The position numbers and the translations under genes are program-made. This document shows, one piece after another, positions 2,629 to 14,683 of a DNA stretch of 14,781 nucleotides (positions are counted from its first letter, which is position 1; every line of letters begins with the position of its first letter). This DNA comes from a virus (Duplodnaviria > Heunggongvirae > Uroviricota > Caudoviricetes): IMG/VR virus record IMGVR_UViG_2778261390_000002, positions 1 to 14,781 of that record; one strand, written 5' to 3'. The notes under the pieces were generated by a model that saw nothing but the letters and a program-made list of their open reading frames with translations, was not told where the DNA came from and searched no databases.

Positions 2629-2974
2629 TCTCTGCTCCTGTTGATACGGAAAGGGAAACAGGCACACCGTTATTACGCCGCCCGGTCAGCCCCACCACCA
2701 TTGAACCGTCAAAATTGCTGTTGATGGTGATGGAATCCAGCATCAGCCGTGGCTCCCAGCGACTCAGTGCCACATACACAGCCGACATGACCTGCAGCCG
2801 TAATGCCGGATTTTGTGGCTGATCTATTAAAGCCGACAGCAGAGAACCATATTCACGACGAGCAATGCGGCTACCCTGCGGCGTCAGCAGAATGTCCCGC
2901 ACCGACTGGCGCAGATGGTCAATATCAGTAATGGCTTTGCCGCTGGTATTGTTCATCCCGCTATAAAGCGTCAT
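2615..2974 (-). CDS. W: Baseplate wedge protein W (gp25/GPW family)
   Basis: 119-aa ORF starting MTLYSGMNNTSGKAITDIDHLRQSVRDILLTPQGSR..., GPW-like. ATG at 2974 overlaps the V stop (ATGA). GGAGG SD upstream. Confidence 0.9.
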   Translation of the reverse strand: MTLYSGMNNTSGKAITDIDHLRQSVRDILLTPQGSRIARREYGSLLSALIDQPQNPALRLQVMSAVYVALSRWEPRLMLDSITINSNFDGSMVVGLTGRRNNGVPVSLSVSTGAENGSD

Positions 2975-3549
2975 ACCGGGCCTCCGGTTGTGTCGCCGCC
3001 TTTCAGGACACCAGTATGCTGATGCGCATCAAGCACGATCCCGTTAGAACTCATCGCTCCGCCGCCCTGGGTAACACCGCCATTGATCACCACGTCGCTG
3101 TTAATGCGTGTGCGGTCAGCCTCCAGTACAAACTCACTGGTTTTCAGGGTGATGTTGTCGACAGCCTCAATGACCATTGATTTGATGCCCCTGACATACC
3201 AGCGCCCGGTGGCGGGTTCGTATTCAAACCAGCCACCGTCAGGATATTCTGTCACGCAGGCGTCCGCCGACGTCGACGGCGGTGCGAACTGATTCGAATA
3301 GACAGCGGGCAACGCAAAGGCGGTTTCCAGATTGCCACCCAGACTCAGCAGCACCACCTGCTCACCTTCCGATGGTCGCCACCATGTGCGTGCATTCCCG
3401 GCACGCAGCGTCAGCCAGCTGATCCAGTTGGTTTCAAGGTCGCCCGTTTTCACCCGGCAAAGCCAGTTCTCCCGGTCCACTTCGGTGACTACACCAGTGC
3501 GAATCAGGTTGGTGATAAGGCGCATGATTTCGGTTAAATGTGCGTTCAT
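2971..3549 (-). CDS. V: Baseplate spike / assembly protein V (P2 gpV-like)
   Basis: 192-aa ORF starting MNAHLTEIMRLITNLIRTGVVTEVD..., gpV-like. First gene after the S-V intergenic region. No SD upstream of the ATG at 3549; a late-promoter-like architecture ends 6 nt before it, so the mRNA may be leaderless. An internal ATG at 3525 is an alternative start. Confidence 0.85.
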   Translation of the reverse strand: MNAHLTEIMRLITNLIRTGVVTEVDRENWLCRVKTGDLETNWISWLTLRAGNARTWWRPSEGEQVVLLSLGGNLETAFALPAVYSNQFAPPSTSADACVTEYPDGGWFEYEPATGRWYVRGIKSMVIEAVDNITLKTSEFVLEADRTRINSDVVINGGVTQGGGAMSSNGIVLDAHQHTGVLKGGDTTGGPV

Positions 3550-3613
3550 GAGAAAAAACTAACCGCCATTGCAAACGCAATCGAGTAGATAGGAATGTTT
3601 GATTCATGGCACA
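3550..3613 (-). promoter_or_regulatory. Candidate Ogr-type late promoter for V: TGT-N12-ACA box plus -10-like hexamer
   Basis: TGTTTGATTCATGGCACA at 3596-3613 matches the TGT-N12-ACA dyad of P2/P4 late promoters. Its centre is 55.5 nt upstream of the A of the V ATG. On the minus strand TAGTTT (3561-3556) sits 34 nt after the box and 6 nt before the ATG. The same spacing is seen upstream of P. Confidence 0.55.
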
Positions 3614-3641
3614 ATACGTTGCTTACTTTTAAGGATATAAA

Positions 3642-4403
3642 ATGAAAGACAATTTAAATCTTCTTATAAAAAAATTAATAAGAAAGGCATTTCCTGAATT
3701 TAGCAATAAGGTAACATGGACTTTACTCACTGCAGGGATCGGTATTCTTGCACTACCTGCACCCACATATTTATTATTCGTAAACCTTATAATTGATTTT
3801 TACAACAAAACAACTAATTCAGAAATCAGCCTTCTTAAGATTGATAGCATTACACCAAGTAGTGGGGTTGCTTTAACTTTAATTCTATCCGGGCTAGTCT
3901 TTCACCTATTAATAAAAGCCCCCCATATATACCAAGAAATTCTAAAAGAGAATAACCAAAAAGAAATACAGGAAAGAAAAAGAGTAGCAGACGTTAAACT
4001 TTATGAGGCATTTATTGATATTCTACCTACAACCTCGTTATCAATTGAATTCTTAAAAGACCATGATTTTGAAAACTCCTATCATGATAATAATACAAAA
4101 GATATTAGTAATCTTGAATACGGGTGGGGTCATGCAGATCAACATTTTCATGACAATGAAATTGAAGATAAAGCCACTCATCTTTACAGTGAAATAATAA
4201 AGTTTAATTATTTTCTCGCTTATAAATCGCACAATATCAATGACTATATGTTTAGCATGCTTACTGACAGAGATCGAGCTATGGTGATGGAATTACTACC
4301 TCAAACAAAGGAAAATATAAAAATAGCCAATGAGTGGAGTTCTACAATTCATCAGCTTTACTGTGACTTTATCTCCACATGTAGGAATAACTTAGCCATA
4401 TAA
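3642..4403 (+). CDS. Hypothetical membrane protein encoded by an AT-rich moron between V and S; function unknown
   Basis: 253-aa ORF on the strand opposite to all flanking late genes. ATG at 3642 is preceded by AAGGA at 7 nt spacing. Composition is strongly AT-rich (by eye about 30 percent GC against mid-50s or higher in neighbours). Two hydrophobic segments (VTWTLLTAGIGILALPAPTYLLFVNLIIDF and VALTLILSGLVFHLLI) are followed by a roughly 160-aa polar, charged domain. I recognise no catalytic motif. Confidence 0.7.
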   Translation: MKDNLNLLIKKLIRKAFPEFSNKVTWTLLTAGIGILALPAPTYLLFVNLIIDFYNKTTNSEISLLKIDSITPSSGVALTLILSGLVFHLLIKAPHIYQEILKENNQKEIQERKRVADVKLYEAFIDILPTTSLSIEFLKDHDFENSYHDNNTKDISNLEYGWGHADQHFHDNEIEDKATHLYSEIIKFNYFLAYKSHNINDYMFSMLTDRDRAMVMELLPQTKENIKIANEWSSTIHQLYCDFISTCRNNLAI

Positions 4404-4421
4404 ATTATATGCTGTAGTTAA

Positions 4422-4865
4422 TTAAGACAAGTAACGAAAAAAAATATCACGAGTTATCATTTCCGCTTCGTCGTTAACACCCAAAAGGCGACGCTCTGCA
4501 TAACGGACCTCAGGTCCCTTACGACTGACACGATCGCGCAGGCCGTAGTGATGAACGCGGGCAATGCGCTGCACCTTACCTTCAAACTGCACGCTGGCAG
4601 AATCGGCGCTGGCGGCAGTTTTCAGATATTTTGTGGTGCGCAGCTTTGCAAACATCTGACGTTTGATACGCCCCTTTTTACTGCGTGCTGTTACCCGTCG
4701 CGGTTCATAACTACTGCCATCTGGATTGCGCTGCATCCTGATGTTCTTCTGTTGTGTCCGGCGCAGTTCCTGCGCCAGCTGGCGCATCATGCGACTTCTC
4801 GTGGCTGGTTCCAGATTCGCCAGCAAGGCACTCAACCAGTCGTCCACCTTCTGCAGTTCAGCCAC
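4422..4865 (-). CDS. S: Tail completion protein S (P2 gpS-like)
   Basis: 147-aa ORF starting (GTG)AELQKVDDWLSALLANLEPATRSRMMRQLAQELRR..., gpS-like. The start codon at 4865 is GTG, with no nearby in-frame ATG. Overlaps the R stop by 8 nt. The last 6 or so codons lie in the AT-rich moron segment. Confidence 0.85.
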   Translation of the reverse strand: MAELQKVDDWLSALLANLEPATRSRMMRQLAQELRRTQQKNIRMQRNPDGSSYEPRRVTARSKKGRIKRQMFAKLRTTKYLKTAASADSASVQFEGKVQRIARVHHYGLRDRVSRKGPEVRYAERRLLGVNDEAEMITRDIFFRYLS

Positions 4866-9928: not shown

Positions 9929-9992
9929 TGTACCGACAACCACACAAACCGCAGGCGGGGAAAGCCTTCATTCAAGGTTGTAGGTTTGTGCC
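9929..9992 (+). promoter_or_regulatory. Candidate Ogr-type late promoter for P/Q: TGT-N12-ACA box plus -10-like hexamer
   Basis: TGTACCGACAACCACACA at 9929-9946 matches TGT-N12-ACA. Its centre is 55.5 nt upstream of the A of the P ATG. TAGGTT at 9981-9986 sits 34 nt after the box and 6 nt before the ATG. This is the same geometry as upstream of V. Confidence 0.5.
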
Positions 9993-11759
9993 ATGAACAC
10001 CACACTGACACCCGCAGATCTCGATCCCCGTCGGCAGGCCATGCTGCTGTACTTTCAGGGATACCGCGTAGCCCGCATTGCTGAAATGCTGGGCGAGAAA
10101 GTTGCAACCGTTCACAGCTGGAAAAAACGCGACAAGTGGGGTGACTATGGGCCGCTGGATCAGATGCAGCTCACCACCGCCGCACGCTACTGCCAGCTCA
10201 TTATGAAGGAGCACAAAGAAGGGAAAGATTTCAAAGAGATTGACCTGCTGGCGCGCCAGTCTGAGCGCCACGCGCGGATCGGCAAATTTAACAATGGCGG
10301 CAACGAAGCCGACTTAAATCCTAACGTCGCCAACCGCAACAAAGGCCCGCGCCGTCAGCCGGAAAAAAATGTCTTCACCGATGAACAGATTGAGAAGCTG
10401 GAAGAAATCTTCCATTCCTCCATGTTCAACTACCAGCGCCACTGGTGGGAAGCCGGAAAAACCAACCGCATCCGCAACCTGCTGAAGTCACGCCAGATCG
10501 GCGCGACCTTCTATTTTGCCCGTGAAGCCCTGATTGACGCCCTGCTTACCGGACGTAACCAGATTTTCCTTTCTGCCAGTAAGGCACAGGCCCACGTCTT
10601 TAAGCAGTACATCATCGACTTCGCCAAAGAAGTGGAGGTGGAGCTGAAAGGCGATCCGATGGTGCTTCCTAACGGGGCCACGCTTTACTTCCTCGGCACC
10701 AATGCCCGCACGGCCCAGAGTTATCACGGCAACCTGTATCTGGATGAATATTTCTGGATACCGAAATTTCAGGAGCTACGCAAAGTGGCTTCCGGTATGG
10801 CTATTCACAAGAAATGGCGGCAGACCTATTTTTCCACACCATCCAGTCTGACCCACAGTGCTTATCCGTTCTGGTCCGGTGCGCTGTTCAACCGTGGGCG
10901 CAACAAAGCCGATAAGGTGGACATCGACCTGTCCCACAGCAATCTGGCCCCCGGCCTGCTGTGCGCAGACGGGCAATACCGCCAGATAGTCACCGTGGAA
11001 GATGCGGTGCGCGGCGGCTGTAACCTGTTCGATCTCGACCAGTTGCGCATGGAGTACAGCCCGGACGAATACCAGAACCTGCTGATGTGTGAGTTCGTGG
11101 ACGATCTCGCGTCCGTGTTCCCGCTCAGCGAGCTGCAGGCGTGCATGGTGGACAGCTGGGAAGTCTGGACCGACTTTCATGCACTGGCGCTGCGCCCGTT
11201 TGGCTGGCGCGAAGTGTGGATCGGTTATGACCCGGCAAAAGGTACGCAAAACGGCGACAGCGCCGGGTGCGTGGTGGTGGCACCGCCAGCGGTGCCAGGC
11301 GGTAAGTTTCGCATTCTTGAGCGTCACCAGTGGCGCGGGATGGACTTCCGCGCCCAGGCTGACGCCATCAAAAAACTGACCGAACAGTACAACGTGACCT
11401 ATATCGGCATCGACTCAACCGGCGTCGGTCACGGGGTTTACGAGAACGTGAAAGCGTTTTTTCCTGCCGTCCGGGAGTTTGTCTACAACCCCAACGTTAA
11501 AAACGCCCTAGTACTCAAGGCCTACGACATTATTAGCCACCGCCGCCTGGAGTTTGACGCCGGGCACACCGACATAGCGCAGTCCTTTATGGCAATCCGT
11601 CGCGCCACCACTGCCAGCGGCAACCGCCCGACCTATGAAGCCAGCCGCAGCGAAGAAGCCAGCCACGCCGATCTGGCCTGGGCAACAATGCACGCACTGT
11701 TTAACGAACCGCTGCAGGGCGAGTCCGCCAATACCAGCAATATTGTGGAGATTTTTTGA
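9993..11759 (+). CDS. P: Terminase large (ATPase) subunit P (P2 gpP-like)
   Basis: 588-aa ORF, close to the roughly 590 aa of P2 gpP, with gpP-like sequence throughout. 9993 is the first start codon after an in-frame TAG. Stop TGA overlaps the Q ATG (TGATG). Confidence 0.95.
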   Translation: MNTTLTPADLDPRRQAMLLYFQGYRVARIAEMLGEKVATVHSWKKRDKWGDYGPLDQMQLTTAARYCQLIMKEHKEGKDFKEIDLLARQSERHARIGKFNNGGNEADLNPNVANRNKGPRRQPEKNVFTDEQIEKLEEIFHSSMFNYQRHWWEAGKTNRIRNLLKSRQIGATFYFAREALIDALLTGRNQIFLSASKAQAHVFKQYIIDFAKEVEVELKGDPMVLPNGATLYFLGTNARTAQSYHGNLYLDEYFWIPKFQELRKVASGMAIHKKWRQTYFSTPSSLTHSAYPFWSGALFNRGRNKADKVDIDLSHSNLAPGLLCADGQYRQIVTVEDAVRGGCNLFDLDQLRMEYSPDEYQNLLMCEFVDDLASVFPLSELQACMVDSWEVWTDFHALALRPFGWREVWIGYDPAKGTQNGDSAGCVVVAPPAVPGGKFRILERHQWRGMDFRAQADAIKKLTEQYNVTYIGIDSTGVGHGVYENVKAFFPAVREFVYNPNVKNALVLKAYDIISHRRLEFDAGHTDIAQSFMAIRRATTASGNRPTYEASRSEEASHADLAWATMHALFNEPLQGESANTSNIVEIF

Positions 11760-12835: not shown

Positions 12836-14617
12836 TTAGATTATATTATAGGCCTTCGCTGACATAGATAATGTTCTAATCTGAACTTTTTGGGCATTCC
12901 ATTCCTCATCGTTAGATGAATACTCATCAATAAACTCATTAACCACCTTAAGGTTTGACTTCTTATACTCGTTTATTTTTTGACTTAAGCTATCATTTTT
13001 ACATGATTCATTCAAAGTAAAGCAAAGAGGAAGAAGATTCCCCATTAATCCAACAACCTCTGAGTCAAAACTACTTTGTGCACCAATATGCTCGAGTGAA
13101 ACTAAGTCTAATTTTAACTCATTAGTTCCTCGCAATTTCTTTTCAAAACGTTCAAAAATATACATTATGAGCTTACGCTGGGAGGCTTTTTTATTTGTAT
13201 AAAATAAATTTTTAACAAATGCCTCATTGAATACTTTTTCATTTGGACTTTTCGCAGAAAAGTATGCTATTGCTTCACTAATGGTTGATTCGATACTACG
13301 TTTATTAGTAGCTTTATCAAGGCTTACTGCTAATACTGAATACTTGGCGTCTATGCCAGAGGGTCTTAATCGGCAAATAGCATTAAATCTAAAGTGGAAT
13401 CTCTCTAAACACATTAGACACTCTATTAAACTTTTTTGCGAAAGACTTCTAGATTTATCTCTTCTTTTTCTTAATAATGACAAAATGAATGGGCGAGGGA
13501 TTGAAACATTGAATATTTCAAATGCTTTAAGTGAATTGTAAATATCTCGCTGATCCTGTTGAGGCCAATCATCAATATCTGGAGAAATTATCTTACAATA
13601 TAAATCAACATCTTTATGCAACTCATCCAAAAATGAAATTGCAGTTAATCCATAAACACCATCATTTATCTCTCTTTTAAAGGCACGGTATAGTTGATCT
13701 TCACCTATATAATTAAACTTAGAAAGCCACCAACACCTGACATAATCAACCATTGTAGCGTTACTATCTCTAGCTTCGATGCAATTAGTAATATAATCCC
13801 ATTTCTCTTTGGCTTTATCTATTGGATATGTTTCAATACAACTCTGGAAAACTTTATTTTTAATCAGATCAAGGGAGCTTAAGTTTATTCCCCTTGCATT
13901 CAAAACCTCGAAAATATCATACGCGTCATCTTCCTTGCCTACTGATATCCTTACTAATTTAAGATAATTAGTAACCATATTGTAAACGGCATTCAAGCAA
14001 AAAAGGTAATCTTCCTTTTTATACTTTACTGCACCGTCACGCAACAAAGAAGAACATAATGCTTTCTTTCCTAGCTTTCTGCTTAAATACAACCCAGCAT
14101 ATTGAATCTTTTTATCTTCATCGCAAGTCACATCAGCTTTATGCTCAACTCTATCTTGGAATTTTAGTTTAAAAAAAGCCCTGTCACTATTTTTAGAAAG
14201 CTTCTCAACTACTGAGTCGCCATTAGAACTGACAGAATTTCTATTGAACGTCTGATTTGCGGTTACGATATATGTTTTAAAAATATCATCAGCAAATTCG
14301 GCCTTCCCATTTTTTCTTAAAAACCTAGAAATTAAAGAAAGTAGAATTGTAATAACACTGAAACGCTGCTGACCATCAACAATCTCCAAAACATTATCAC
14401 TGTCAGCACCAGACAATACAATTGTACCAATAAAGTACTCATTGAATTCAAAGTCATCCCCTTTGGGATTTAATTTTATATTTCTTATTATGTCTTGCCA
14501 CAATTCATCAAGTTGTAACTTTTCCCAACTAAATTCTCGTTGATTCCGTGGAATCACATAACGCTGTTTAACAGAAAGTATATTTTTAATATTTAAAGGA
14601 GTTGCATCAAAATTCAT
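12836..14617 (-). CDS. DUF262/DUF1524 (GmrSD-family, ParB-like NTPase plus HNH-like nuclease) protein; putative type IV restriction / anti-phage defence enzyme
   Basis: N-terminal DUF262 motifs are present: RYVIPRNQREFSWEK (IPxxQRxFxW type), EIVDGQQRFSVI (DGQQR) and DIFEVLNARGINLSSLDLIKNK. C-terminal DUF1524 motifs are present: LEHIGAQ (EHIxxQ) and GNLLPLCFTLNESCKND. Strongly AT-rich. Start is most likely ATG at 14617 (MNFDATPLNIKNILS..., 593 aa), with a GGGAA SD-like sequence and a TTGTTT-N17-TAAATT promoter-like sequence upstream. The ORF-track TTG at 14668 would lie upstream of that putative transcription start. Confidence 0.85.
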   Translation of the reverse strand: MNFDATPLNIKNILSVKQRYVIPRNQREFSWEKLQLDELWQDIIRNIKLNPKGDDFEFNEYFIGTIVLSGADSDNVLEIVDGQQRFSVITILLSLISRFLRKNGKAEFADDIFKTYIVTANQTFNRNSVSSNGDSVVEKLSKNSDRAFFKLKFQDRVEHKADVTCDEDKKIQYAGLYLSRKLGKKALCSSLLRDGAVKYKKEDYLFCLNAVYNMVTNYLKLVRISVGKEDDAYDIFEVLNARGINLSSLDLIKNKVFQSCIETYPIDKAKEKWDYITNCIEARDSNATMVDYVRCWWLSKFNYIGEDQLYRAFKREINDGVYGLTAISFLDELHKDVDLYCKIISPDIDDWPQQDQRDIYNSLKAFEIFNVSIPRPFILSLLRKRRDKSRSLSQKSLIECLMCLERFHFRFNAICRLRPSGIDAKYSVLAVSLDKATNKRSIESTISEAIAYFSAKSPNEKVFNEAFVKNLFYTNKKASQRKLIMYIFERFEKKLRGTNELKLDLVSLEHIGAQSSFDSEVVGLMGNLLPLCFTLNESCKNDSLSQKINEYKKSNLKVVNEFIDEYSSNDEEWNAQKVQIRTLSMSAKAYNII

Positions 14618-14654
14618 ATCATCATTCCCTAGACATGACCATGGGTTGATCGTT

Positions 14655-14683
14655 AATTTACTTAACAAGATAGATTAAAACAA
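14655..14683 (-). promoter_or_regulatory. Candidate sigma70-type promoter for the DUF262/DUF1524 gene
   Basis: Minus strand reads TTGTTT (14683-14678), a 17-nt spacer, then TAAATT (14660-14655). Predicted start near 14648, about 30 nt upstream of ATG 14617. Lies in AT-rich DNA, so a chance match is possible. Confidence 0.35.

What the first reader, a model, noticed from the sequence alone, without database searches (positions are those of the whole stretch)
3550..3613. Late-activator box and -10-like hexamer in fixed register with the V start codon; V mRNA probably leaderless
TGTTTGATTCATGGCACA (TGT-N12-ACA) is centred 55.5 nt upstream of the A of the V ATG. TAGTTT ends 6 nt before the ATG, and there is no Shine-Dalgarno sequence. 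P2 late promoters are described as lacking a -35 and carrying a TGT-N12-ACA dyad centred near -55; the P2 gene V transcript is, to my recollection, a textbook leaderless mRNA. The geometry here would start transcription at or within 1-2 nt of the ATG. The divergent moron start (3642) is only 29 nt beyond the box, and a TTGATT hexamer lies inside the box, so moron expression and late activation may interfere with each other.
Basis: partly seen in the sequence, partly recalled or inferred. Interest (0 to 1): 0.45.

Follow-up and report, generated by a model that had tools for sequence, protein, structure and literature searches.

The report
P2-type late promoter, leaderless V
This is the ordinary late promoter of the baseplate gene V in a P2-like E. 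coli prophage, placed so that transcription should begin on the start codon itself, as was mapped long ago for phage P2, so it is a correct reading of a known arrangement, not a new kind of element.

Summary
The dyad TGT-N12-ACA lies at 3596-3613 and is centred 55.5 nt from the A of the V ATG (3549, minus strand). TAGTTT lies at 3556-3561, which is -12..-7. There is no Shine-Dalgarno sequence.

The window is a 186/P2-like prophage of E. coli. An identical prophage encodes an Ogr-type zinc-finger activator.

The P2 RefSeq record places the V-operon transcription start on the first base of the V coding sequence. The mapped PP and PO starts lie 55.5 nt from their shared dyad centre.

I compared 39 largely non-homologous V upstream regions. 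38 carry a perfect dyad, and 37 of these are centred -54.5 to -57.5 from the ATG. An nAnnnT hexamer starts 43.5 nt after the dyad centre in 32 of 38, and ends 5-8 nt before the ATG in 37 of 38. All start codons are ATG. The one lineage with the dyad 13 nt further upstream has gained a GAGG Shine-Dalgarno sequence.

The reading as an activator-dependent PV promoter giving a leaderless V mRNA is well supported, but it is a new member of a known kind.

A conserved TAGATA-N18-TGgCACAAT spanning the dyad is the better moron promoter candidate. The terminase gene P shows the same leaderless geometry.

The parts
3596..3613 (.). Activator box TGT-N12-ACA (V strand: TGTGCCATGAATCAAACA), centred at -55.5 from the A of the V ATG. 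It is the predicted binding site of the prophage's Ogr-type zinc-finger activator.
   Evidence: A perfect dyad is present in 38 of 39 V upstream regions, in the same register (-54.5 to -57.5) in 37. The P2 activator site for PV is annotated with its centre at -55.5.
3556..3561 (-). -10-like hexamer TAGTTT at -12..-7 relative to the A of the ATG. It has no TG extension.
   Evidence: In the box-anchored profile, A (89%) and T (89%) occupy hexamer positions 2 and 6, with the hexamer starting 43.5 nt after the box centre in 32 of 38 promoters. Moron-family homologues have TAATTT, TATTTT, TAGTTT, CAATTT, TAGATT and TATGTT at the same place.
3547..3549 (-). V start codon ATG. The predicted transcription start is its A (3549), giving a leaderless mRNA.
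   Evidence: The P2 record places the V-operon start on the first base of the V coding sequence. The A is the only purine between -6 and +2. A pyrimidine is at -1 in 30 of 37 relatives, p=9e-4, and ATG is the start codon in 39 of 39. The first 5 nt are unpaired in the predicted fold, z-score 0.1.
2971..3549 (-). Gene V (baseplate spike, 192 aa), first gene of the V-W-J-I-H tail operon.
   Evidence: Pfam Phage_base_V and Apex. 42% identity to P2 gpV, aligned from residue 3.
3562..3595 (-). Spacer between box and -10 (34 nt). The -35 position reads TCGATT (3 of 6), so there is no good -35.
   Evidence: Read. The sigma-70 consensus scan finds no promoter in the V-moron spacer; its only two matches in 3400-4500 lie at 4183-4270, inside the moron gene.
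3586..3615 (+). Candidate sigma-70 promoter of the divergent moron: -35-like TAGATA (3586-3591), an 18-bp spacer, and extended -10 TGgCACAAT (3607-3615). The activator box lies inside its spacer and -10.
   Evidence: TAGATA-N18-CACAAT with the TG is conserved in 5 of 7 moron-family loci and is TGGATA in a sixth, while the flanks diverge. It is below the threshold of the consensus scan. This part is inferred.
3631..3635 (+). Shine-Dalgarno AAGGA of the moron, 6 nt before its ATG.
   Evidence: AAGG is kept in 6 of the 7 moron-family loci.
3642..4403 (+). Divergent moron: a 253-aa helical membrane protein of unknown function, about 31% G+C against about 55% in the phage genes.
   Evidence: No Pfam or PADLOC hit and only a weak PHROG hit. 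Homologues always lie between S and V.
9929..9946 (.). Shared PP/PO activator box TGTACCGACAACCACACA, centred 55.5 nt upstream of the P ATG (9993) and 87.5 nt upstream of the O ATG (9850). It serves as an internal control for the geometry.
   Evidence: P2 has one shared site with the mapped starts 55-56 nt to either side.
9981..9995 (+). TAGGTT (-12..-7), then 6 nt, then the P start codon. The predicted PP start is the A of the P ATG, so the terminase mRNA would also be leaderless.

Best explanation
Window 3550-3613 is the PV late promoter of a P2/186-like prophage.

During lytic growth the prophage's Ogr-type C4 zinc-finger activator binds the TGT-N12-ACA dyad (3596-3613). By analogy with P2 Ogr, it recruits sigma-70 RNA polymerase through the alpha subunit to a promoter that has only a weak -10 (TAGTTT, 3561..3556) and no useful -35.

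The dyad centre is about 43.5 nt upstream of the hexamer, and the hexamer ends 6 nt before the ATG. Transcription should therefore start on the A of the V ATG (3549), or within a nucleotide of it. The V-W-J-I-H mRNA then has no leader and no Shine-Dalgarno sequence, and V is translated by the leaderless pathway, which needs a 5'-terminal AUG.

Shown here: the sequence anatomy, its conservation, and the presence of the activator gene in the same prophage. Shown for P2 in its record: the transcription start lies on the start codon. Inferred: activator binding, the exact start and the mode of translation in this prophage.
For: 1. The anatomy is exact.
2. P2 record: the V-operon start is at 10308, the first base of the V coding sequence, and the activator site 10239-10266 has its centre at -55.5. 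The PP and PO starts lie 56 and 55 nt from the centre of their shared site. Their one-mismatch dyad is centred 78.5 and 95.5 nt from the P and O ATGs, with 23- and 40-nt leaders, which gives -55.5 in both cases.
3. Comparison covered 117 V loci, giving 60 distinct upstream sequences in 33 clusters below 70% identity, plus 6 further loci. 38 of 39 have a perfect dyad. Centres are -55.5 (23), -56.5 (9), -57.5 (3), -54.5 (2) and -68.5 (1).
4. A hexamer nAnnnT starts 43.5 nt after the dyad centre in 32 of 38. Its end lies 6 nt (23), 7 nt (9), 8 nt (3) or 5 nt (2) before the ATG.
5. Natural control: in the one cluster with the dyad at -68.5 (L017; L033), the hexamer TATAGT moves with the dyad and the 13 extra nucleotides carry a GAGG Shine-Dalgarno (L033: GAAGGG). 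Among the other regions with a dyad, only L111 has an SD-like 4-mer, and there it overlaps the -10.
6. Start codons are ATG in 39 of 39, and a pyrimidine is at -1 in 30 of 37 (p=9e-4).
7. Within the same prophage, the two promoters that the rule predicts to have leaders have strong Shine-Dalgarno sequences: PF with a 30-nt leader and AGGAGG, PO with a 32-nt leader and GGAG. V and P have none.
8. An identical prophage in E. coli A37 encodes a 72-aa Ogr homologue, 56% identical to P2 Ogr, with the CX2CX22CX4C motif.
9. In genera where V overlaps the upstream gene (P88, phiT5282H) there is no perfect dyad, a Shine-Dalgarno is present, and P88 uses GTG.
Against: - No transcript 5' end, activator binding or reporter data exist for this prophage. 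The start is inferred from geometry.
- TAGTTT is a weak -10 without a TG extension.
- A P2-like TGCAAT lies at -24..-19 and could be an alternative -10.
- P2's own PV has TGT-N11-ACA centred at -57, so the 'N12 at -55.5' rule is not strictly universal. Phage 186 keeps only the upstream half-site before its V homologue.
- The comparative loci come mostly from one V lineage and share ancestry to an unknown degree, although their upstream sequences are not alignable.
- A close relative (L051) has one T fewer between the -10 and the ATG, so the register tolerates a shift of 1 nt.
Confidence: 0.78

Rival explanations
1. PV is real, but transcription starts upstream of the ATG using TGCAAT (3573..3568, -24..-19) as the -10. 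This would give a leader of about 12 nt without a Shine-Dalgarno sequence.
For: TGCAAT resembles the TGCAATCT found before the P2 V ATG and in several relatives. It matches TATAAT at 4 of 6 positions.
Against: The dyad would then sit at about -43.5, not -55.5. That contradicts the spacing mapped in P2 and the constant 43.5-nt offset between dyad and hexamer in 32 of 38 promoters. TGCAAT is not conserved among moron-family promoters (TGCAAA, TACTTT, TGTTAT), whereas the hexamer at -12..-7 is. A 12-nt leader without a Shine-Dalgarno would translate poorly.
Confidence: 0.07
2. V has no promoter of its own here. It is expressed by read-through from the O operon or from elsewhere, and the dyad is a chance palindrome or a regulatory site that serves only the moron.
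For: The count of dyads in the window is not above chance. No terminator-like site is found between S and V. Some P2-like genera do couple V to the upstream gene.
Against: The dyad recurs in the same register in 37 of 39 non-alignable upstream regions, including phages with no moron at all. An internal AUG without a Shine-Dalgarno on a read-through transcript would be poorly translated. The moron ATG is only 37.5 nt from the dyad centre, so the 55.5-nt geometry would place a start inside the moron coding sequence. The dyad therefore cannot activate the moron in the way it serves PP and PO.
Confidence: 0.04
3. The promoter is as described, but the start is 1-2 nt off the A. That gives a 1-2-nt leader, or a start at +2 or +3 that would require a downstream start codon (Met9).
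For: The hexamer-to-ATG distance varies from 5 to 8 nt among relatives, and L051 differs from the window by one T. RNA polymerase start-site choice is flexible by about 1 nt.
Against: The A is the only purine between -6 and +2 in the window. The pyrimidine at -1 and purine at +1 are enriched. The N-terminal residues before Met9 are conserved as coding sequence, including against P2 gpV. There is no Shine-Dalgarno before Met9.
Confidence: 0.1

Closest known systems
Bacteriophage P2 late promoter PV (Ogr-dependent; V mRNA starts on the ATG)
   Same: Same gene and same place in the genome, between S (or a non-essential divergent ORF, orf30 in P2) and V. An activator site is centred about 55-57 nt from the start, there is no -35, and a weak -10 ends 6-7 nt before the ATG. 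There is no Shine-Dalgarno sequence, and the transcription start is annotated on the first base of the V coding sequence.
   Different: There is no alignable sequence similarity in the promoter. Megablast similarity to even close relatives stops at window 3555, and a sensitive search of 3540-3660 finds no P2-like phage. P2 has TGT-N11-ACA at -57 and CAATCT with 7 nt to the ATG. The window has a perfect N12 dyad at -55.5 and TAGTTT with 6 nt. gpV is 42% identical.
P2 PP/PO and phage 186 p12/pV divergent late promoters sharing one activator site
   Same: The same dyad type, with the start 55.5 nt from the dyad centre. The window has the equivalent shared box at 9929-9946.
   Different: In P2, 186 and Kp4852-2 the P mRNA has a 23-nt leader with a GGCGAGG Shine-Dalgarno. 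In the window lineage the P ATG sits exactly where the start is predicted.
Classical leaderless mRNAs of E. coli phages and transposons (lambda cI from PRM, Tn1721 tetR)
   Same: A 5'-terminal AUG, no Shine-Dalgarno sequence and an unstructured 5' end. That leaderless translation needs AUG is established knowledge, not tested here.
   Different: Here the promoter depends on an activator and drives a long structural operon, not a regulator gene.
Satellite P4 late promoters Psid/PLL (Delta-activated) and Serratia NucC-dependent promoters
   Same: The same TGT-N12-ACA class of site, recognised by Ogr-family zinc-finger proteins (from my own knowledge of the field; the consensus is cited in PMC3931495).
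   Different: These were not examined here. They drive other genes and have leaders.

Membership tests
P2-type (Ogr/Delta/B-dependent) late promoter | Dyad TGT-N12-ACA centred about 55 nt upstream of the transcription start | tested here: met
   A perfect dyad lies at 3596-3613, 55.5 nt from the predicted start. The distance is measured to a predicted start, not a mapped one. The rule reproduces the mapped P2 PP and PO starts.
P2-type (Ogr/Delta/B-dependent) late promoter | A recognisable -10 but no functional -35 | tested here: met
   TAGTTT is at -12..-7. The -35 position reads TCGATT (3 of 6). The consensus scan finds no promoter in the V-moron spacer.
P2-type (Ogr/Delta/B-dependent) late promoter | A cognate Ogr-family C4 zinc-finger activator encoded by the same element | tested here: met
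   The gene is outside the window. The prophage of E. coli A37 carries the V-moron-S region (3450-4520) at 100% identity. It encodes a 72-aa protein 56% identical to P2 Ogr, with CX2CX22CX4C.
P2-type (Ogr/Delta/B-dependent) late promoter | Located upstream of a late morphogenetic operon, at the position of P2 PV | tested here: met
   The gene order I-J-W-V / moron / S-R-lysB...O / P-Q matches P2 and 186.
P2-type (Ogr/Delta/B-dependent) late promoter | Transcription depends on the activator and on the RNA polymerase alpha subunit (rpoA109-sensitive) | not testable with these tools
   This needs reporter fusions or in vitro transcription.
Leaderless mRNA | The transcript 5' end coincides with the A of the start codon | not testable with these tools
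   Inferred from the geometry and from the P2 annotation. No 5'-end data are available.
Leaderless mRNA | The start codon is AUG, not GUG or UUG | tested here: met
   ATG here and in 39 of 39 relatives. S and R in the same window use GTG, and P88, where V is coupled to the upstream gene, uses GTG.
Leaderless mRNA | No Shine-Dalgarno sequence upstream, and a 5' end free of structure | tested here: met
   There is no SD core in -17..-4. SD-like 4-mers occur only in the leadered L017, the promoter-less L027 and L111. The AUG is unpaired in the predicted fold, z-score 0.1.

The most novel reading that the evidence does not exclude
In this prophage lineage two of the four late operons would be made as leaderless mRNAs from Ogr-type promoters: V-W-J-I-H and the terminase/portal operon P-Q. 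In addition, the PV activator box would be nested in the spacer and extended -10 of the sigma-70 promoter of the divergent moron (TAGATA-N18-TGgCACAAT). One binding event by the late activator would then switch the baseplate operon on and the lysogenic-conversion gene off. Because the promoter lies inside the exchangeable S-V cassette, each moron would travel with its own copy of PV, held in register with the V ATG.
Probability: 0.3. Interest if true: 0.45.

Novelty: new member of a known kind. Interest (0 to 1): 0.25.

Why it matters
It confirms that the P2 PV design survives complete sequence turnover of the promoter. That design is an activator site at -55, a weak -10, and the start codon at +1.

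This gives a simple rule for annotating late promoters and transcription starts in the very common P2-like prophages of Enterobacterales: the dyad centre plus 55.5 nt marks the start.

It also explains why the variable S-V 'moron' slot ends a few bases before the V ATG. The promoter is part of the exchangeable cassette, but its register to the ATG is constrained.

The rule flags likely mis-called starts, such as the P gene of a Gegevirus record. It also predicts a second leaderless late gene (P) in this lineage.

None of this changes the current understanding of P2 late gene control.

Tried and rejected
- **Alignment with P2 PV.** The promoter is not alignable with P2 or with close relatives. 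Megablast similarity ends at 3555, and a sensitive blastn of 3540-3660 gave only chance hits. I therefore compared sequences anchored on the ATG and on the dyad.
- **Literature.** I found no text in the held library stating that P2 V is leaderless. Julien & Calendar 1995 (PMC177091) is not held. I relied on the P2 RefSeq annotation instead.
Rejected. The hexamers 16-18 bp downstream (GCTTAC, CTTACT, TTACTT) lack the -10 pattern. TACTTT needs a 19-bp spacer and would place the start after the Shine-Dalgarno. TTGATT is not conserved.
- **Is the distal half-site more often ATTGT (making xACAAT on the other strand) in moron-bearing loci?** By eye it is so in about 40% of them, no more than the A+T content predicts. 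I therefore make no general claim beyond this moron family.
- **The 10-mer AGTTTTTTCT shared by PV and the O leader.** Hundreds of shared 10-mers are expected in a window of this size, so I dismissed it.
- **Known RNA families.** None found in the window.
- **Moron function.** There is no Pfam or PADLOC hit and only a marginal PHROG hit. The AlphaFold model has pLDDT 78 and pTM 0.60 and is all helical. No PDB match has E below 0.8.
- **P2 hotspot papers.** They analyse the Q-A locus, not the S-V slot.

Full report
**What is in the sequence**

Gene V (baseplate spike; Pfam Phage_base_V plus Apex) is on the minus strand at 2971-3549.

Read on that strand, the upstream region is ...aacgtatTGTgccatgaatcaaACAttcctatctactcgattgcgtttgcaatggcggtTAGTTTtttctcATG.

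- The dyad TGT-N12-ACA occupies 3596-3613. Its centre is 55.5 nt from the A of the ATG at 3549.
- TAGTTT occupies 3561..3556, which is -12..-7 if the A is +1.
- The six bases between TAGTTT and the ATG are all pyrimidines.
- The TAG of TAGTTT is an in-frame stop, so this ATG is the first possible start.
- No Shine-Dalgarno core precedes it. 13 of the 18 other gene starts tabulated for the window have a core of at least 4 nt.
- The divergent 253-aa ORF starts at 3642, behind an AAGGA Shine-Dalgarno.
- TTGATT is at 3599-3604.

**Is it more than chance?**

The count of TGT-N12-ACA in the window is unremarkable: 5 found against 3.4 expected. The position is what matters. With the base composition of the 92-nt spacer, a dyad within 2 nt of this register has a probability of about 1.6e-3. 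Together with an nAnnnT hexamer in register it is about 1.6e-4. The comparative data below settle the question.

**Where the window comes from**

- The V-moron-S region (3450-4520) is 100% identical to prophage DNA in several E. coli chromosomes (ETEC4089, A37, M2). 977 of 5426 complete E. coli genomes match the V part, but only 12 carry the moron.
- In strain A37 the prophage sits next to ssrA. It has the 186-type early region (CI, CII, Fil, a DinI-like gene) and the P2 late gene order.
- It encodes a 72-aa ogr/Delta-like zinc-finger protein. This protein is 56% identical to P2 Ogr and has the CX2CX22CX4C motif.
- The closest phage records are Escherichia and Klebsiella Peduoviridae of the genera Wadgaonvirus and Elveevirus.

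**What is known for P2**

The P2 RefSeq record carries these annotations:

- The transcription start of the V operon is at 10308, which is also the first base of the V coding sequence.
- The activator binding site for PV is 10239-10266, with its centre at -55.5.
- One shared activator site (3057-3087) lies between the PP start (3016) and the PO start (3127).

In my own measurement, the PP/PO dyad has one mismatch. It is centred 78.5 and 95.5 nt from the P and O ATGs. With the annotated leaders of 23 and 40 nt, that puts it at -55.5 from both mapped starts.

PMC3931495 quotes the TGT-N12-ACA consensus for the four P2 late promoters and their dependence on the zinc-finger activator Ogr.

P2's own PV is slightly deviant. 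No N12 dyad is present, even allowing one mismatch. The nearest is TGT-N11-ACA centred at -57, and CAATCT ends 7 nt before the ATG.

**Comparative test of the 'fixed register'**

I collected V homologues with their flanks from one genome per species (42 loci) and from viral contigs (80 loci). I added phage records and loci found through the moron.

Of the 117 usable loci, 60 have distinct upstream sequences. These fall into 33 clusters with less than 70% identity over -110..-7. Many have entirely different DNA upstream, either a different moron or none.

With six further loci, 38 of 39 upstream regions have a perfect TGT-N12-ACA. The centres are distributed as follows:

| Dyad centre from the A of the ATG | Regions |
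|---|---|
| -55.5 | 23 |
| -56.5 | 9 |
| -57.5 | 3 |
| -54.5 | 2 |
| -68.5 | 1 |
| no dyad | 1 |

Anchoring on the dyad instead of the ATG, the only other strongly conserved positions are an A 44.5 nt and a T 48.5 nt after the centre, each at 89%. These are positions 2 and 6 of a hexamer that starts 43.5 nt after the centre. The pattern nAnnnT is present there in 32 of 38 regions.

The end of the hexamer lies 6 nt (23 regions), 7 nt (9), 8 nt (3) or 5 nt (2) before the ATG. Shifts of the dyad are matched by shifts of the hexamer.

Many of these hexamers are preceded by TG one or two bases upstream. An extended -10 of this kind makes sense for promoters without a -35.

**A natural control**

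In the Scandinavium and Tatumella prophages (L017, L033) the dyad is at -68.5.

- The hexamer (TATAGT) keeps its 43.5-nt offset from the dyad.
- The extra 13 nt before the ATG read aaaaagaggaacag in L017 (aaaaagaagggcta in L033). They contain a Shine-Dalgarno sequence.

SD-like 4-mers occur in only two other regions. One is L027, which has no dyad and a G+C-rich coding-like upstream region. The other is L111, where the 4-mer overlaps the -10.

In the genera Xuanwuvirus (P88) and Novemvirus (phiT5282H), V overlaps the upstream gene. There is no perfect dyad, a Shine-Dalgarno sequence is present, and P88 uses GTG.

So a Shine-Dalgarno sequence appears exactly where the geometry predicts a leader or translational coupling. 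It is absent where the geometry puts the start on the ATG.

All 39 start codons are ATG, and a pyrimidine occupies -1 in 30 of 37 regions against a 55% background (p=9e-4). This fits the pyrimidine(-1)/purine(+1) preference of transcription initiation.

The first 5 nt of the predicted V mRNA are unpaired, and the 5' 60 nt are no more structured than shuffled sequence.

**Internal control from the other late promoters of the same prophage**

Applying 'dyad centre plus 55.5' gives the following:

| Promoter | -10-like hexamer | Predicted leader | Shine-Dalgarno |
|---|---|---|---|
| PF | CAACAT, in register | 30 nt | AGGAGG |
| PO | none clear (CAACCA or AACCAT near -12..-7) | 32 nt | GGAG |
| PV | TAGTTT at -12..-7 | none (start on the ATG) | none |
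| PP | TAGGTT at -12..-7 | none (start on the ATG) | none |

The P N-terminus aligns with P2 gpP from residue 3, so 9993 is a credible start.

The same arrangement for P is found in two other lineages:

- A Gegevirus with a diverged spacer has TATGTT, 6 nt, then the first ATG. The record annotates the second ATG, 9 nt downstream.
- Yersinia phage 56.17 has TAGCCT, 6 nt, then ATG.

P2, 186 and Kp4852-2 instead keep a 23-nt leader with GGCGAGG.

**The promoter lies inside the variable cassette**

- Similarity to close relatives stops at 3555, six bases before the ATG.
- In relatives without a moron, the 68-nt S-V spacer is essentially just the promoter. It reads TGTATCAGCACTGATACA at -55.5 and CAACCT at -12..-7.
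- In moron-bearing relatives, the whole spacer is replaced by a moron plus a different PV.
- Homologues of this particular moron form 31 clusters, all 'hypothetical' and all from Enterobacterales.
- In the prophage contexts examined, they lie between S and V, divergent from V, with a spacer of 92-93 nt (86 nt in one remnant). This holds even at 49-73% protein identity.

**Moron promoter**

The alignment of seven such spacers shows several conserved elements:

- ATTGT..CA and ACA of the dyad are invariant.
- A TATCTAC block directly after the dyad is conserved.
- The -10 hexamer of PV is conserved.
- The moron Shine-Dalgarno is largely conserved (AAGG in 6 of 7).

Read on the moron strand, TATCTA is TAGATA at 3586-3591. 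This matches TTGACA at 4 of 6 positions. Exactly 18 bp downstream lies TGgCACAAT at 3607-3615, an extended -10.

This pair is kept in 5 of 7 loci and is TGGATA in a sixth. The sequence on both sides diverges, and the general set of PV promoters does not conserve the TATCTAC block. It would start the moron mRNA near 3621-3622, about 20 nt before its ATG.

The activator dyad lies within the spacer and -10 of this candidate promoter. Bound activator and RNA polymerase at the moron promoter should therefore exclude each other.

This is an inference. I give it roughly even odds, and it falls below the threshold of the consensus scan.

The dyad cannot activate the moron in the PP/PO manner. A start 55.5 nt from its centre would fall at 3660, inside the coding sequence.

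**Verdict**

The finding is a correct identification of a PV-type late promoter with the start codon at +1. It is the known P2 arrangement in a new member.

The modest additions are:

- a quantitative rule: dyad centre, 43.5 nt, nAnnnT, 6-7 nt, ATG;
- its persistence through complete promoter turnover;
- a likely second leaderless late gene (P) in this lineage;
- a candidate moron promoter wrapped around the activator site.

The exact transcription start and the dependence on the activator remain to be measured.

Noticed in passing
window 9929-9995: The terminase gene P appears to be leaderless as well. The shared PP/PO dyad is centred 55.5 nt before the P ATG (9993), TAGGTT is at -12..-7, and there is no Shine-Dalgarno sequence. 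The same geometry is found in a Gegevirus with a diverged spacer and in Yersinia phage 56.17. P2, 186 and Kp4852-2 have a 23-nt leader with a Shine-Dalgarno.
   Followed up: partly
window 9987-10004: A second perfect dyad, TGTGCCATGAACACCACA, overlaps the P start codon. Its first 11 bases are identical to the PV box (TGTGCCATGAA). Its start (TGTGCCATGAACACC) is also present in the three related phages checked (500465-1, Cartapus, ST512-KPC3phi13.2). It is 58 bp from the PP/PO dyad. It could be chance or a second activator site at the P start. Unexplained.
   Followed up: no
window 12836-14668 (minus strand): A 610-aa GmrSD-type (DUF262/DUF1524) protein matches PADLOC HEC-06 and type IV restriction models. 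It lies just beyond Q, in the cos-proximal Q-A slot that Rousset et al. 2022 describe as the P2 defence hotspot.
   Followed up: partly
window 3642-4403: The moron encodes an all-helical protein with two or three N-terminal hydrophobic helices. It belongs to a small family restricted to Enterobacterales and confined to the S-V slot of P2-like prophages. It has no Pfam or PADLOC hit, and the AlphaFold model (pLDDT 78) has no PDB match. In E. coli ETEC4089 and ETEC1702 the gene is interrupted by an IS1 element.
   Followed up: partly
window 4404-4421: The moron and S converge with only 18 nt between their stop codons, and no terminator-like hairpin is detected in 3400-4500. P2 has an annotated terminator after S. 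O-operon transcripts may therefore run antisense through the moron.
   Followed up: no
L017 and L033 (Scandinavium lactucae and Tatumella saanichensis prophages), about 70 nt upstream of V: These are natural leadered variants of PV. The dyad and TATAGT are shifted 13 nt upstream together, and the added leader carries a Shine-Dalgarno sequence (GAGG in L017, GAAGGG in L033).
   Followed up: yes
L051 (IMG/VR contig 2744054627_000015), V upstream region: This promoter is near-identical to the window's but has one T fewer in the T-run between TAGTTT and the ATG. That moves the dyad to -54.5 and the hexamer end to 5 nt from the ATG. The homopolymer could modulate start-site choice.
   Followed up: no
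L147 (Klebsiella phage ST258-KPC3phi16.1, MK433581) 295-306: The record annotates the terminase start at the second ATG (locus position 304). The promoter geometry and the N-terminal alignment favour the ATG at 295, so the start is probably mis-called.
   Followed up: partly
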